In this document: positions 27,336 through 29,760 of the stretch, in pieces
Layout of the letters: every line of letters starts with the position of its first letter
Numbering within the stretch: position 1 is the first letter of the stretch
NCBI GenBank assembly: GCA_934778205.1
Contig: CAKVOD010000006.1
Location: 23,050-87,049, forward strand
Origin: an uncultured Clostridia bacterium
GTDB taxonomy: Bacteria; Bacillota; Clostridia; Christensenellales; UBA1242
Direction of reading: 5' to 3'
Length of the DNA stretch: 64,000 nucleotides
The notes under the pieces: model-generated
What the model was told of the DNA's origin: nothing
Seen by the model: only the letters and a program-made list of their open reading frames with translations
Database searches by the model: none
Program-made: the position numbers and the translations under genes

Positions 27336-29429
27336 TTATATATCATTATATGCATTTAGGGGGACTGTTGGACAAAGAGCATTATGAATTAACATCCCCC
27401 CTGCAAACAAATTATGATTGTTTTCAACCGAATAACTATACACTGTTATTCCTCTAGTTGTTGTCATAATGTCAATTGACTCAACTTCAACATATCCACT
27501 TAGCGTTTTTACCATATCCCCCACCGCAAGTGGATTATCTCTTAATACATCGGGTGACACATCATATAATGTGCTTGTTCCGCAAATTGCCCAACCTGTG
27601 CTTGTCAAAATCGGGTGGTCGGGTGTGAGATTCAAGACGCTACCGTCTTTTAATCTAACAGTCGCCAACGAATAACGTGTAACAACTACAACATTCGTTA
27701 TATTTTGCAAACTCAATTCACCTGTCGTAGTGTCCATAGTCAAAACTTTGTCTCCCACTTCAATTTCGTTTGCTAATTTTGTTTCTCCATTAAAGCCAAC
27801 TGAAACTGCCGTATCTTCAGTAATACAACAAACTTTGTAAGATAAACTATAAACGCAATTGATTGATTCATCAAATGAAGTAAAGTTCTTGTTATCATAT
27901 GAGTAATAAAGTTCGACCGCTTCAGTTATCGTGTCGGAGGTTTCCCTATAACCATCTCCGCTTATGCACTGAACAAGCAAACCAGATAAATCGACACTCG
28001 AAATTTTTGACGCTGATATGATTGTAAATTTGTATGTATATGACCCATTAGCAATTTTTTCGCAATTATATGAGTTTCCACCATATGTTACACTCTCAGT
28101 ACTTGAGGAAACTGAATTCAATGGAACATTAACAATCATTTTAAAATAAACATTTGGTGATAATTCGCTTATAGTCAATGAACTTGTTACTGAAATGCTT
28201 GGGTTAAATCCCCCACTGATTTCAATCTTCATTTCACCACTTGTTGTATAAGCTGGCTTTGTTCTATTTGTAATAGTTATATTAAGCGTTGCAGTAGCAG
28301 CAGCGCCAGTGCTCGCGTCAGTCATAAGTGCGTAATTGACGCCGTCCACAGATGACGATATGCTGAATGTGTATGTCGCATTTGTTTGCGTGGCGCTAAA
28401 TGTGCCGACGGGCGCGTTTTTTAATACTGACGTCACATCAATTGAAGAAAGTGTGCTTTCATTCGTAGCCCTCAAATTTGTTCCATTTGCGTCCGTTGTC
28501 AATACATACATCCAGCCATTCTTTGAGGATGAAACCATATTTTGACTATAGAGAGGCGCTGTTGATTGCATTGTAATTTTTGTGTACTTTGCAGGGTTTG
28601 TTACTGCCACATTCACTGAACCACTAACTGTAGTTGACTGATATGTTCCGTTTTGATACAAATTTTCAATCACGACATCGTTAAGCACACTCACGTCACT
28701 GACAGTCGAACCCGCAACAACATTAAAACCGATTTGCCCCTCTATCGTCGCTTGCGCACGTGAGTCGGACATATCCTTTTTTGTATCTGCTGAAACTACT
28801 ATGAAAATAGTTTGCGGAGTCGTTGCCGTTGTCAAGTTTTCCCCCGTATATGTAAAGTGTGAAAGAGGCTCAAACAAATTAAAGGTTGTGCCCGTTTTAA
28901 CTGCAGTGGTGGAGGTCAAACTAAATCTATTCTTTAGGACGCTATCGGCTGAAACTACGCCAAGCGAAGCTTCGCCAAATGTATATGTGGTGCTATCAAA
29001 TGAAATCAAATTCGTTGTGCTACTTAGGTCACTAAAAATGTATTCAACTTTGACAAAGTATTGCGACAGTTGATTTTGGTCGTCGATTGTCACATTGTAT
29101 TTACTGTCAGTAGTAAGACTAACGGCACTCGAACTACCATATGTTATACCACCATTATTTAGCGTTCCATCCGCCCCAACATTTGAGTAAAACATCTCAA
29201 TGCCGTTGTTAAAACGCAGTGCGGGACTGTCAAATGTGAACGCAATTGTTCCCGTCGCAGTCTTTGAATCTTTTAAAACACTATATGTTGTATACGCAAC
29301 AAAAGCAAGTCCCAAAAGTAAAATGACAAGGCTCAAAATTGTCATTTTGCGAAATTGGTTTGCGCGGGTTTGTTCCGTACAAATTGTTGAAATTCTTTGG
29401 TTATTATTTTTCATACTACTACCTTTCAT
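27336..29429 (-). CDS. variable membrane-anchored surface protein, family member 3, with C-terminal Hint domain (short form; internal ATGs at 29429 and 29414; long form to ATG 29676/29682 needs a 1-nt tract change)
   Basis: The ORF track gives 27336..29579. It shares the conserved ..YCQNLQDTCKN.. leader peptide with members 1 and 2. It has the TM segment MTILSLVILLLGLAFVAYTTY and a Thr/Ser-rich ectodomain. Confidence 0.75.
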   Translation of the reverse strand: MKGSSMKNNNQRISTICTEQTRANQFRKMTILSLVILLLGLAFVAYTTYSVLKDSKTATGTIAFTFDSPALRFNNGIEMFYSNVGADGTLNNGGITYGSSSAVSLTTDSKYNVTIDDQNQLSQYFVKVEYIFSDLSSTTNLISFDSTTYTFGEASLGVVSADSVLKNRFSLTSTTAVKTGTTFNLFEPLSHFTYTGENLTTATTPQTIFIVVSADTKKDMSDSRAQATIEGQIGFNVVAGSTVSDVSVLNDVVIENLYQNGTYQSTTVSGSVNVAVTNPAKYTKITMQSTAPLYSQNMVSSSKNGWMYVLTTDANGTNLRATNESTLSSIDVTSVLKNAPVGTFSATQTNATYTFSISSSVDGVNYALMTDASTGAAATATLNITITNRTKPAYTTSGEMKIEISGGFNPSISVTSSLTISELSPNVYFKMIVNVPLNSVSSSTESVTYGGNSYNCEKIANGSYTYKFTIISASKISSVDLSGLLVQCISGDGYRETSDTITEAVELYYSYDNKNFTSFDESINCVYSLSYKVCCITEDTAVSVGFNGETKLANEIEVGDKVLTMDTTTGELSLQNITNVVVVTRYSLATVRLKDGSVLNLTPDHPILTSTGWAICGTSTLYDVSPDVLRDNPLAVGDMVKTLSGYVEVESIDIMTTTRGITVYSYSVENNHNLFAGGMLIHNALCPTVPLNAYNDI
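27381..27827 (-). other. Hint (Hedgehog/intein) / bacterial intein-like autoprocessing domain
   Basis: CITEDTAVSV..IEVGDKVL (block A), LTPDHPILT (TxxH) and VYSYSVENNHNLFAGGMLIHN (terminal HN), followed by ALCPTVPLNAYNDI and the stop. Confidence 0.75.
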
Positions 29430-29639
29430 TTTTGCACTTTTTTTATCATTAGTACAGTCAAATTCAGTAGTAGTGCAATTATTCTTATTATGTGTTTTCG
29501 CTAAATTTTTATTCTTATTATTGTTTCCGCAAATTTTGCAATTTGCCGTATTCTGTCGATTTTTGCAAGTATCTTGCAAATTTTGACAATATTCCCCATT
29601 GTTTTGAGGGGCTATACTGCCATTTTTTGCATCAGTATA

Positions 29640-29652
29640 CCCCCCCCCCCCC
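29640..29652 (-). repeat. homopolymeric G13 tract (C13 on + strand)
   Basis: Counted as 1 + 10 + 2 C. It is preceded on the minus strand by GGAGAGAAA ATG CTT ATG AAA AAT AGA ACA AAT GTG CTA. Confidence 0.9.
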
Positions 29653-29760
29653 TAGCACATTTGTTCTATTTTTCATAAGCATTTTCTCTCCAGAATATTT
29701 TATTTTTCACAATTAGTATACCCATTTTCCCCCTTTTAGTCAAGCAAATCAAGCAAAAAG

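What the first reader, a model, noticed from the sequence alone, without database searches (positions are those of the whole stretch)
29414..29720. Locus 3: same poly(G)13 switch on the Hint-domain member
On the minus strand the elements read TATACT (-10-like, 29720..29715), GGAGAG, ATG 29682, CTT, ATG 29676, AAA AAT AGA ACA AAT GTG CTA, then G13 (29652..29640). The ATG frame ends at G-TA TAC TGA. The long frame is closed only by the TAG at the tract edge and is then open for 70-75 codons to the internal ATGs (29429, 29414). The second of these has AAAGG 8 nt upstream. The leader peptide ..YTDAKNGSIAPQNNGEYCQNLQDTCKN.. is homologous to loci 1 and 2. The DNA encoding NLQDTC(K/T)N is a hairpin-capable palindrome (TTTGCAAG-ATA-CTTGCAAA), and it is conserved in loci 1-3.
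Basis: partly seen in the sequence, partly recalled or inferred. Interest (0 to 1): 0.7.

Follow-up and report, generated by a model that had tools for sequence, protein, structure and literature searches.

The report
Poly-G on/off switch on surface-protein gene
A run of 13 G's placed eight codons into a surface-protein gene of an uncultured gut-type Clostridia bacterium knocks the gene out of frame, other samples carry the same gene with 12 G's and in frame, so this is a classic slippage-driven on/off (phase-variation) switch, here in a lineage where it had not been described.

Summary
On the minus strand a TTGACT-17-TATACT promoter, GGAGAG, ATG 29682/29676 and G13 (29652-29640) precede a 767-codon frame that G13 puts out of frame (TGA 29634-29632). 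The window has four such cassettes (G13, G13, G13, G14), all out of frame. They are its only G/C runs of 9 or more.

Another metagenome holds the same 8.3 kb with no mismatch and one G fewer, giving an intact 781-aa protein. Relatives carry G12, G13, G14 and G4. One relative has no tract and a continuous ORF. The leader after the tract has no stop in the long frame and 3-15 in the other frames.

Best reading: a slipped-strand, translational phase-variation locus, OFF in this window. It controls a membrane-anchored, beta-rich protein ending in an intein-like Hint domain.

New here: in every paralog the internal SD/ATG is the 3' arm of a hairpin whose arms differ between paralogs. Synonymous divergence in the leader is under half that of the gene body.

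This is a new member of a known kind. The closest published analogue found is the Bifidobacterium breve pilus G-tract switch. Within-population switching was not tested.

The parts
29738..29743 (-). -35-like hexamer TTGACT
   Evidence: TTGACT-17 nt-TATACT, 10 of 12 consensus matches. It is the only promoter-like site upstream of the gene on this strand.
29715..29720 (-). -10-like hexamer TATACT
29686..29691 (-). Shine-Dalgarno-like GGAGAG
   Evidence: It is conserved in L003, L004 and L008.
29674..29682 (-). Two in-frame start codons, ATG 29682 and ATG 29676. ATG 29676 is the conserved one.
   Evidence: The first ATG is ATA in L003 and TTG in L008, while the second is kept in all relatives. 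P0001 and P0006 are called from these starts.
29640..29652 (-). Poly-G tract, G13 in this window (out of frame). G12 or G15 would fuse the start to the long ORF.
   Evidence: The G12 allele in L001 has no mismatch to the window over 8.3 kb, so the tract is the only difference. G14 and G13 occur on identical flanks in L008 and L009.
29632..29634 (-). TGA that ends the upstream frame at G13. The OFF product is a 16-aa peptide, MLMKNRTNVLGGGGVY.
   Evidence: read directly from the sequence.
29652..29654 (-). TAG that closes the long frame at the 5' edge of the tract
29584..29622 (-). Candidate RNA hairpin just after the tract: 29622-29614 (UGGCAGUAU) pairs with 29592-29584 (AUAUUGUCA)
   Evidence: RNAalifold consensus. 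93% of cells are paired over 10 sequences and 3 pairs change on both sides; 9 of 500 shuffles reach the observed pairing. This is inferred, not shown.
29562..29580 (-). Its 5' arm holds the TTG (29579) from which gene callers start the OFF-state ORF.
   Evidence: 80% of cells are paired over 10 sequences, with a compensatory AAG/CTT to AGG/CCT change in L002 and L010; 30-33 of 500 shuffles reach the observed values. The TTG is ATG in L008 and L009.
29529..29546 (-). Second palindrome GCAAATT-GCAA-AATTTGC
   Evidence: It is kept in L003 and L004 and weakened to GCAAATT-GCAT-AATTTGC in L008. No covariation test was possible.
29415..29474 (-). Hairpin that covers the internal ribosome-binding site: 5' arm ACUACUACU (29474-29466) pairs with 3' arm GGUAGUAGU (29423-29415), which abuts ATG 29414
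   Evidence: Duplex energy is -12.2 kcal/mol against -6.2 +/- 1.9 for shuffled sequence, P = 0.007. A hairpin at the equivalent position with different arm sequences occurs in loci 1, 2 and 4.
29412..29429 (-). Internal in-frame ATGs (29429 and 29414). The second has AAAGG 7 nt upstream.
   Evidence: ATG 29429 is GTG or GTT in L003 and L008, while ATG 29414 is kept. Neither is present in L002 or L010, whose leaders are short.
29289..29345 (-). Single hydrophobic segment MTILSLVILLLGLAFVAYT (signal anchor or signal peptide), preceded by R/K
   Evidence: Hydropathy maximum. The AF2 model has a helix at residues 103-137.
27828..29288 (-). Predicted extracellular, beta-rich body with no Pfam or NCBIfam family
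   Evidence: low-confidence model.
27381..27827 (-). C-terminal Hint (mini-intein-like) domain, from Cys619 to His-Asn 766-767 in P0001 numbering
   Evidence: TIGR01445 scores 24.8 bits against a cutoff of 24.5. Pfam Intein_splicing and Hint score below their cutoffs. PDB RecA mini-inteins match at E = 2.5e-5.
27301..27329 (-). Terminator-like hairpin with a T run, 7 nt after the stop codon (27338-27336). The gene is therefore monocistronic.
5423..5435 (-). Paralogous cassette, locus 1: G13, out of frame
8114..8126 (-). Paralogous cassette, locus 2: G13, out of frame
51002..51015 (-). Paralogous cassette, locus 4: G14, out of frame in the opposite sense (it needs +1 or -2 G)
   Evidence: L011 carries the same G14 state.

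Best explanation
This is a contingency (phase-variation) locus.

A sigma-70-type promoter gives a monocistronic mRNA. Ribosomes start at ATG 29676 or 29682, read eight to ten codons and enter a G tract. The length of the tract in the DNA changes by slipped-strand mispairing at replication.

When the tract is a multiple of three (G12 or G15), the start codon is fused through four or five glycines to a 767-codon frame. That frame encodes, in order:
- a roughly 100-residue N/K/C-rich, probably disordered and cytoplasmic leader;
- one membrane-spanning segment;
- a beta-rich extracellular body;
- a C-terminal Hint (intein-like) autoprocessing domain.

At G13, the state in this window, translation stops after 16 residues at TGA 29634-29632 and the protein is not made.

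The sequence and the alleles show the frame logic, the existence of ON and OFF alleles that differ only in the tract, and that the leader is kept open in one frame only.

The following steps are inferred:
- The length changes happen at high frequency and reversibly within a clone.
- In the OFF state the ribosome-free leader folds so that a hairpin (29474-29466 with 29423-29415) covers the internal SD/ATG 29414 and prevents leaky internal initiation.
- The protein is surface-exposed, and switching it serves immune, phage or niche evasion.

The same cassette (5' UTR, short N-terminal peptide, G tract, leader) is attached to at least four different ectodomains in this genome, which gives independently switching surface variants.
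For: Frame logic
- It can be read directly from the sequence.

Tracts
- There are four tracts of G13-14, against 0.02 G9 hits expected by chance. They are the only long G/C runs in a window of about 39% G+C.
- All four lie 7-10 codons after an SD+ATG.

Alleles
- P0001 (781 aa, found on 5 contigs) is 100% identical to the window's frame and begins MLMKNRTNVLGGGGYTDAK.
- Its contig L001 has G12. Over 8,347 aligned columns it differs from the window by 0 mismatches and 1 gap, which is the tract.
- L008 (G14) and L009 (G13) have identical flanks.
- Census of lengths: G12 in L001, L002 and L007; G13 in the window (three loci), L003, L004/L005, L006 and L009; G14 in L008, window locus 4 and L011; G4 in L010.

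The leader is translated
- The first 225 nt after the tract hold 0 stops in the long frame and 1-15 in the other two frames in eleven of the twelve cassettes examined. The exception, L007, has one stop in the long frame and a broken gene.
- Leader dN/dS is 0.2-0.4.
- P0006 (L002) has no internal Met before the membrane segment, so it can only be made from the upstream start (or from the TTG inside the palindrome).
- P0013 (L012) has TTGTTGTTGGTTG in place of the tract and one continuous ORF from the upstream start.

Masking hairpin
- It is predicted in all four window loci and in L003 and L008. The arms differ between paralog groups: ACUACUACU/GGUAGUAGU; CAUAUUAC..AUAC/GUAU.GUAAUAUG; CAUAUUACCAAC/GUUGGUAAUAUG.
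- Duplex energies are -12 to -16 kcal/mol against about -6 for shuffled sequence, P = 0.0005-0.023 per locus.

Other
- A terminator follows the stop codon.
- A published precedent exists for the same design in a Gram-positive gut commensal: Bifidobacterium breve pilus genes with G10-12 between the signal peptide and the body of the protein (PMC9187656). The generality of homopolymeric-tract switches is reviewed in PMC2831843.
Against: - No reads were available. Within-population heterogeneity and reversibility are not shown, and the differences between assemblies could in part be homopolymer-calling noise. PMC9187656 warns that database G-tract lengths are unreliable.
- Only 3 of about 14 independent cassettes are in the ON phase. 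All four in this window are OFF, and G13 predominates. That fits random phase or selection for OFF, but it also invites an RNA-level explanation.
- A good SD plus ATG is conserved just before the membrane segment in four paralog groups. Some protein may therefore be made whatever the tract length, which would make this an isoform switch rather than an ON/OFF switch.
- Surface location rests on one hydrophobic segment and a low-confidence model (pLDDT 51.5).
Confidence: 0.78

Rival explanations
1. Isoform switch rather than ON/OFF. The real, constitutive start of the surface protein is the internal ATG 29414 (or 29429), with its own SD. The G tract only decides whether a fraction of molecules carries an extra roughly 100-residue N-terminal cytoplasmic extension, or whether leader translation opens the hairpin and raises internal initiation.
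For: - An SD-like motif 7-8 nt before an in-frame ATG is kept in all four window paralogs although the encoded residues differ: GAAGGAG, GAGGGTG, AAAGGTAG, AAGGTTGG.
- What follows the ATG looks like an ordinary signal anchor.
- The leader is low-complexity and modelled as disordered.
- The leader varies in length between relatives.
Against: - Relatives L002, L010 and L012 have no internal SD/ATG, yet keep the upstream start and an open leader.
- The internal SD/ATG is predicted to be base-paired in every paralog.
- The leader frame is kept free of stops, which a mere 5' UTR would not need.
Confidence: 0.2
2. RNA-level recoding. The tract length is essentially fixed, at G13 in loci 1-3. The full-length protein is made from it by RNA polymerase slippage or ribosomal frameshifting on the G run, helped by the hairpins just downstream.
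For: - G13 is the commonest length.
- Stable structures are predicted within 10-40 nt after the tract in all loci. Whole-leader z-scores are -5.5, -3.45, -1.9 and -5.1.
- In locus 4 an 11-bp hairpin starts about 8 nt after the run, which is the geometry of -1 frameshift signals.
Against: - DNA alleles of different length do exist on identical backgrounds.
- Loci 1-3 at G13 would need a +1 shift, while locus 4 at G14 would need a -1 shift, so no single recoding direction fits.
- All-G heptamers are not among the known efficient -1 slippery sites (my own knowledge, not tested here).
- The hairpin nearest the tract shows no covariation.
Confidence: 0.1
3. Artefact or decay. The length differences are homopolymer errors of short-read assembly, and the genes are either simply intact (true G12) or pseudogenes.
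For: - Illumina reads through G tracts are error-prone, and annotated G-tract lengths can be wrong (PMC9187656).
- L010, with G4, comes from a contig with 4x coverage.
Against: - The same architecture recurs at four paralogs in one genome and in independent samples and species.
- Lengths are reproducible within alleles: P0001 on 5 contigs, P0003 on 3, P0004 on 3.
- The ORFs downstream are intact over 350-770 codons with dN/dS well below 1, so these are not decaying pseudogenes.
- A 13-nt G run in a genome of about 39% G+C is not a neutral feature.
Confidence: 0.05

Closest known systems
G-tract replication-slippage switch of the sortase-dependent pilus genes of Bifidobacterium breve UCC2003 (bbr_0113, bbr_1889; PMC9187656)
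   Same: - Both are in Gram-positive gut commensals.
- Both have an uninterrupted G10-13 tract inside the 5' part of the first gene.
- In both, the tract splits an N-terminal start or export segment from the body of a surface protein.
- In both, the database sequence is out of frame and one length restores a fused ORF.
- Several loci per genome carry the tract.
   Different: - The phylum differs: Clostridia rather than Actinobacteria.
- The products here are not LPXTG pilins (no LPXTG-like motif).
- Here the tract lies before the membrane segment and is separated from it by a 70-100-codon leader.
- A conserved cassette is shared by unrelated ectodomains.
- An internal SD/ATG is masked by a hairpin.
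- In vivo switching was measured for B. breve but not here.
Poly-G/C contingency loci of Campylobacter jejuni, Neisseria, Haemophilus and Helicobacter (phasome; PMC6321876, PMC5084427, PMC2823697)
   Same: - Both use G8-G13 runs near the 5' end of genes for surface structures.
- Both are translational ON/OFF switches by frame.
- Both show multiple independent loci per genome.
- In both, tract-length polymorphism is the only difference between near-identical strains.
   Different: - Those are Gram-negative pathogens with experimentally measured switching rates.
- Their tracts are usually not embedded in a shared, homologous leader cassette.
Homopolymeric tracts as a general prokaryotic regulatory device (Orsi et al. 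2010, PMC2831843)
   Same: The concept is the same: homopolymer tracts are enriched at the 5' ends of genes, including in Firmicutes, and allow reversible gene inactivation.
   Different: That work concerns mostly shorter poly-A/T tracts in cultured species. It does not cover a family of G13 cassettes in uncultured Clostridia.
Bacterial intein-like (BIL) / Hint domains in variable bacterial surface proteins (this concerns the product, not the switch)
   Same: - The C-terminal roughly 150 residues match intein N- and C-terminal splicing motifs (Cys, TPDHP, HN).
- The domain sits in a variable, mosaic secreted protein.
   Different: - The domain lies at the extreme C-terminus. It is followed by only 14 residues here, and some relatives end ...LLHS with no Asn.
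- Splicing is therefore unlikely, and N-terminal cleavage or transfer in the manner of Hedgehog is more likely.
- No processing data exist.

Membership tests
Simple-sequence-repeat (homopolymeric tract) translational phase-variation locus | Long uninterrupted mononucleotide run (8-9 nt or more) inside the ORF, near its 5' end | tested here: met
   G13 at 29652-29640, codons 11-15 after ATG 29682.
Simple-sequence-repeat (homopolymeric tract) translational phase-variation locus | Tract length sets whether the start codon is in frame with the main ORF, and the off-frames end quickly | tested here: met
   G13 gives TGA after 16 codons. G14 gives TAG after 10 more codons. G12 gives a 781-aa ORF.
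Simple-sequence-repeat (homopolymeric tract) translational phase-variation locus | Tract length is polymorphic among otherwise (near-)identical sequences | tested here: met
   Window G13 against L001 G12: 0 mismatches in 8.3 kb. L008 G14 against L009 G13: identical flanks.
Simple-sequence-repeat (homopolymeric tract) translational phase-variation locus | High-frequency, reversible switching within a clonal population | not testable with these tools
   This needs raw reads, error-corrected amplicon sequencing or cultures. Only consensus assemblies were available.
Simple-sequence-repeat (homopolymeric tract) translational phase-variation locus | The product is a surface or surface-modifying component | tested here: inconclusive
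   There is a single N-terminal hydrophobic segment, and basic residues (R, R, K) precede it. The body is beta-rich (low confidence). Paralog 4 carries a Listeria-Bacteroides repeat. There is no experimental localisation.
Programmed ribosomal frameshift site | Fixed slippery sequence with one required shift direction and a conserved downstream stimulator | tested here: not met
   The tract length varies. Loci 1-3 would need +1 and locus 4 would need -1. The hairpin nearest the tract shows no covariation.
Bifidobacterium-type pilus G-tract switch | The switched gene is the first gene of a sortase-dependent pilus cluster (LPXTG pilin, with a sortase nearby) | tested here: not met
   No LPXTG-like motif occurs in any of the four products. 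The neighbours are prolyl-tRNA synthetase, a DNA alkylation repair protein and AddB/AddA. It works like this system but is not a member.
Hint / bacterial intein-like domain (product) | Sequence motifs of the Hint fold: N-terminal Cys, block B T-x-x-H, C-terminal H-N | tested here: met
   Cys619, TPDHP (residues 686-690) and HN (766-767) are present. TIGR01445 scores 24.8 bits against a cutoff of 24.5. The PDB RecA mini-intein matches at E = 2.5e-5. Pfam models score below their cutoffs.
Hint / bacterial intein-like domain (product) | Autoproteolytic cleavage or splicing activity | not testable with these tools
   This needs protein expression and mass spectrometry.
Known structured RNA family (Rfam) in the leader | A match to a curated covariance model | tested here: not met
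   No Rfam match at gathering score in the window apart from one tRNA. The only hit in 29350-29800 is a chance microRNA match at E = 0.89.

The most novel reading that the evidence does not exclude
The 5' cassette may be more than a frame switch. It could be a portable, composite translational control module in which three things act together: the G tract, a set of conserved and partly mutually exclusive leader hairpins, and a hairpin-masked internal SD/ATG.

Such a module would give three outputs:
- a full-length protein with a Cys-rich cytoplasmic tail;
- a tail-less protein when the mask is opened, either by ribosomes reading the leader or by a signal such as temperature;
- no protein.

The module would be kept nearly identical at synonymous sites and grafted by recombination onto unrelated ectodomains in an uncultured Clostridia lineage.
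Probability: 0.2. Interest if true: 0.6.

Novelty: new member of a known kind. Interest (0 to 1): 0.4.

Why it matters
Phase variation in gut commensals has mostly been studied as DNA inversion in Bacteroides and Clostridioides, or as methylation switching. Slippage switches are known chiefly from Gram-negative pathogens and, recently, from Bifidobacterium.

This locus shows that an uncultured Clostridia lineage has a small set of poly-G contingency genes. Four of them lie in 64 kb, scattered among housekeeping genes, and they drive different surface proteins, one of which has a Hint autoprocessing domain.

There are two practical consequences.
- Gene callers split or truncate these genes. Here they start at a TTG inside a palindrome, so the true N-termini and the on/off state are lost in metagenome catalogues.
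- Tract lengths in metagenomic reads could be used to read the expression state of surface antigens of uncultured bacteria directly from sequence data.

The masked internal start, if real, would be a testable addition to how such switches are kept tight.

Tried and rejected
- A genome contigs pattern scan for the tract plus its 3' flank gave one hit: L006, an uncultured Clostridia MAG, also G13.
- Two JGI metagenome scans were run. The first found nothing. The second found two unrelated high-GC chance matches.
- A profile search with the leader alignment A1 returned only one short protein, P0008. The leader is too short and too low in complexity for a database of that size.
- Looking up the window's own OFF-state ORF (747 aa from the TTG) found no record.
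- Rfam found no known RNA family in the leader.
- The hairpin that pairs the 3' end of the G tract with CCCC about 30 nt downstream is 86% paired but shows no covariation. It is no better than shuffles and is not claimed.
- A column-wise covariation test of the SD-masking hairpin failed. MAFFT puts the arms of the paralog groups 3 nt out of register. Per-locus duplex energies against shuffles were used instead. My first measure, the mean unpaired probability of positions -14 to +3, was not significant for locus 3.
- The AlphaFold2 model of P0001 from 7 sequences was poor (pLDDT 51.5, pTM 0.33). No fold search was run on it.
- No internal promoter is predicted between the tract and the internal ATG.
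- A role of the tract as a promoter spacer is rejected, because the tract lies downstream of the SD and ATG.
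Full report
**1. The observation**

- TATACT lies at 29720-29715. The consensus scan reports this pair as the only promoter-like site ahead of the gene on this strand.
- GGAGAG lies at 29691-29686.
- ATG 29682, CTT and ATG 29676 are followed by AAA AAT AGA ACA AAT GTG CTA.
- Thirteen G occupy 29652-29640.
- The frame of the ATGs runs GGG GGG GGG GGG GTA TAC TGA and stops at 29634-29632.
- The frame shifted by one base is closed by TAG 29654-29652 at the tract edge. It is then open from TAT 29639 to the stop at 27338-27336.
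- That frame passes ATG 29429 after 70 codons and ATG 29414 after 75. AAAGG lies 7 nt before ATG 29414.
- The palindrome TTTGCAAG-ATA-CTTGCAAA is at 29580-29562.

A search for G9 finds four sites in the window, against 0.02 hits expected from shuffles. The sites are 5435-5423 (G13), 8126-8114 (G13), 29652-29640 (G13) and 51015-51002 (G14), all on the minus strand. They are the only G/C runs of 9 or more in a window of about 39% G+C, whose longest A/T runs are 9-10.

The one correction concerns loci 1 and 2. There the 3' arm of the palindrome is CTTGCACA, so the perfect stem is 6 bp.

**2. What surrounds it**

All four tracts sit in homologous 5' cassettes with the same parts in the same order:
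- a promoter with a -10 or extended -10 element;
- a conserved start of the 5' UTR (GTGAAAAAT in loci 1-3);
- an SD and an ATG;
- seven to ten codons;
- the tract;
- a leader of 50-75 codons;
- an in-frame ATG with an SD-like motif;
- a hydrophobic segment.

After the hydrophobic segment the four proteins are unrelated. Two have no Pfam or NCBIfam family. One has a Listeria-Bacteroides repeat. Locus 3 has a C-terminal Hint domain.

The cassettes are scattered among housekeeping genes: MnmA, fructose-bisphosphate aldolase, prolyl-tRNA synthetase, AddB/AddA and a two-component system. A terminator-like hairpin follows the stop codon of locus 3, so the gene stands alone.

The only species-representative genome with the cassette is an uncultured Clostridia MAG. 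Relatives lie next to SpoIVB, YtxC and ribosomal protein genes. The organism is therefore a member of the Clostridia known mainly from ENA metagenome assemblies, and I could not refine the taxon further.

**3. Evidence that the tract is a switch**

All four tracts in the window put the upstream ATG out of frame with the long ORF. For loci 1-3, G12 or G15 would fuse them. For locus 4, which has a T before the run, G12 or G15 would likewise fuse them, but G14 is off in the opposite sense.

- **ON alleles exist.** The protein search with the long frame returned P0001. It is 781 aa, 100% identical, seen on five contigs, and begins MLMKNRTNVLGGGGYTDAK. That is the fused product of a G12 allele.
- **The tract is the only difference.** The contig of P0001, L001, carries G12. 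Over 8,347 aligned columns it differs from the window by no mismatch and one gap, which is the tract.
- **Other lengths occur.** L008 (G14) and L009 (G13) come from different samples and have identical flanks. Further relatives carry G12 (L002, L007), G13 (L003, L004/L005, L006), G14 (L011) and a collapsed G4 in a 4x-coverage contig (L010).
- **Gene callers mis-start the OFF alleles.** They begin at the TTG inside the palindrome, giving MQDTCKN.... This is why most database entries are truncated.

**4. Evidence that the leader is translated as part of the protein**

- The first 225 nt after the tract hold no stop in the long frame and 1-15 stops in the other two frames in eleven of the twelve cassettes examined. 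The exception, L007, has one stop in the long frame and a broken gene.
- P0006 (L002, G12) has a short leader and no Met between the tract and the membrane segment.
- P0013 (L012), a relative of locus 4, has TTGTTGTTGGTTG where the tract would be. It has a single ORF running from the upstream start through the leader into the membrane segment.
- Leader dN/dS is 0.2-0.4.
- The leader is N/K-rich, carries seven Cys and a net positive charge, and is modelled as disordered. With the basic residues (R, R, K) that precede the hydrophobic segment, it is most simply read as a cytoplasmic N-terminal extension or an over-long signal-peptide n-region.

**5. RNA or DNA structure in the leader**

The whole leader folds better than shuffled sequence. 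The z-scores are -5.5, -3.45, -1.9 and -5.1 for loci 3, 1, 2 and 4. Three elements deserve comment.

- Over ten distinct leaders it is 80% paired.
- L002 and L010 have TTTGCAGG/CCTGCA(A/C)A in place of TTTGCAAG/CTTGCAAA. This is a change on both sides that keeps the pair while altering the peptide from QDTC to QASC or QVSC.
- L003 and L008 lose one or two pairs. L006 and locus 4 lack the palindrome altogether.
- Thirty to 33 of 500 shuffles do as well.
- The palindrome is therefore probably under some structural selection, but it is not required for the switch.

(b) A hairpin 29622-29614 with 29592-29584.
- It is 93% paired, with three pairs changed on both sides, and 9 of 500 shuffles reach the observed pairing.

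(c) The most consistent feature: in every paralog the internal SD/ATG is the 3' arm of a hairpin whose 5' arm lies 45-60 nt upstream.
- The arms differ between paralog groups: ACUACUACU/GGUAGUAGU in locus 3; CAUAUUAC..AUAC/GUAU.GUAAUAUG in loci 1 and 2; a perfect 12-bp CAUAUUACCAAC/GUUGGUAAUAUG in locus 4.
- Duplex energies are -12 to -16 kcal/mol against about -6 for shuffled upstream sequence, with P between 0.0005 and 0.023 per locus.
- L003 has an A-to-G change that turns an A-U pair into G-U. L011 keeps both arms while the loop changes.

Synonymous divergence in the leader is less than half that of the ectodomain for the same sequence pairs: 0.22 against 0.57, and 0.26 against 0.55. This fits selection on the nucleotide sequence, or gene conversion of the cassette. 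No Rfam family matches.

**6. Mechanism**

- **Shown.** Tract length decides whether the upstream start is fused to the long ORF. Both states exist in nature on the same background. The leader belongs to the ORF.
- **From established knowledge of homopolymeric tracts** (PMC2831843, PMC6321876, PMC9187656). A G run of this length changes length by slipped-strand mispairing at a high rate, reversibly.
- **Inferred.** At G13 the ribosome stops after 16 residues. The leader is then free of ribosomes, and the hairpin over the internal SD/ATG prevents leaky initiation, which keeps the OFF state tight. At G12 ribosomes read straight through.

The main rival, which I rate at about 0.2, is that the internal ATG is a working start. 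The tract would then switch between a long isoform and a short one, or would couple internal initiation to leader translation.

RNA-level recoding is unlikely. Loci 1-3 would need a +1 shift and locus 4 a -1 shift, and DNA alleles of different length exist.

An assembly artefact cannot explain four homologous G13-14 tracts, each followed by an intact ORF of about 350-770 codons (dN/dS well below 1 where measured, at locus 3), nor the reproducible lengths within alleles.

**7. Comparison with what is known**

It works like the poly-G contingency loci of Campylobacter, Neisseria and Helicobacter. [quoted passage not shown] There a G10-12 run separates the export signal from the body of a surface protein, and the reference genome is out of frame.

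It is not a member of that pilus system. It has no LPXTG motif and no sortase context.

It meets the sequence-level criteria of a homopolymeric-tract phase-variation locus. The one criterion I could not test is switching within a clone.

The product's C-terminal domain meets the sequence criteria of a Hint, bacterial-intein-like domain. Its position at the very end of the protein suggests self-cleavage rather than splicing.

**8. Verdict**

The finding is real and correctly interpreted. It is a new member of a well-known kind of system in a lineage where literature searches here found no description of it.

Two features go beyond the textbook case. A conserved cassette is shared by unrelated surface proteins, and the internal start is masked by a hairpin. 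The second rests on prediction only.

Interest is moderate, at 0.4.

Noticed in passing
window 29415-29474; 5231-5290; 7922-7981; 50862-50921 (all minus strand): In all four cassettes the internal SD/ATG is the 3' arm of a hairpin. The arm sequences differ between paralog groups: ACUACUACU/GGUAGUAGU; CAUAUUAC../..GUAAUAUG; and a 12-bp perfect CAUAUUACCAAC/GUUGGUAAUAUG.
   Followed up: partly
window 29412-29639 compared with 28650-29264, against L003 and L008: Synonymous divergence in the leader (pS 0.22-0.33) is less than half that in the ectodomain (0.55-0.61) for the same sequence pairs. This points to nucleotide-level constraint or to gene conversion of the cassette.
   Followed up: partly
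L012 56-130: A relative of locus 4 has TTGTTGTTGGTTG where the G tract would be. It has one continuous ORF from the upstream start (called as GTG) through the leader, so it is a version of the gene with no tract that is always in frame.
   Followed up: partly
L010 1437-1440: A relative of locus 3 has only G4 at the tract position, which is the same reading phase as G13. The contig has 4x coverage, so this is either a locked-OFF deletion of 9 G or an assembly collapse.
   Followed up: no
window 51015-51017 and L011 231-233: In the locus-4 type, an ATG abuts the tract (AAATG-G13), and at G14 it is in frame with the long ORF. Both samples carry G14, and gene callers start there (MGGGGA...). The nearest SD is about 23 nt upstream, so use of this ATG is doubtful but not excluded.
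   Followed up: no
window 50970-50997 (minus strand): An 11-bp hairpin, AAGUU-A-UCCACA-UAGU-UGUGGA-A-AACUU, starts about 8 nt after the locus-4 tract. The inner stem is kept in L011 and L012 with different loops, but it also encodes the conserved peptide PHxCGK.
   Followed up: partly
window 29577-29579; L008 about 1503-1505: The TTG in the 5' arm of the palindrome is the start used by gene callers for OFF alleles. It is ATG in L008 and L009. A purine-rich codon pair (GGGGAA, AAGGAA, GAGGAA, GAAGAA or AGGGAA) lies 13 nt upstream in all relatives. This may be a third, weak start site.
   Followed up: no
window 27336-28340 compared with L004 7240-8532: The 5' two-thirds of the locus-3 gene is 97% identical between the window and L004, but the last roughly 1.3 kb, including the Hint domain, cannot be aligned at the DNA level. 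L004 carries the C-terminus type of P0005-P0007, so the gene is a recombinant mosaic.
   Followed up: partly
window 27339-27380 (C-terminus); P0004-P0007: The Hint domain is at the extreme C-terminus. In the window it ends ...LIHN followed by 14 residues. Relatives end ...GILLHS with no Asn and no residues after the domain. This suggests N-terminal self-cleavage or transfer rather than splicing.
   Followed up: no
window 4364-4400; 6914-6950; 49734-49770 (C-termini of paralogs 1, 2 and 4): The three paralogs without a Hint domain, and all relatives of locus 4, end in a similar short tail: ...NNIIIV, ...NNVVIL, ...NSSIMI. This may be a shared C-terminal sorting or anchoring signal.
   Followed up: no
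L007 3231-3491: In another organism (its neighbours are SpoIVB, YtxC and IF3) a cassette is at G12 (ON). The ORF breaks after 86 aa and a separate 289-aa ORF follows, so there is a second frameshift or a decaying copy. It has its own 10-bp palindrome, CAATTTTTGC-AAAGTG-GCAAAAATTG.
   Followed up: no
window 10416-10489 (+): This is the single tRNA gene, and the only Rfam match at gathering score in the window.
   Followed up: no
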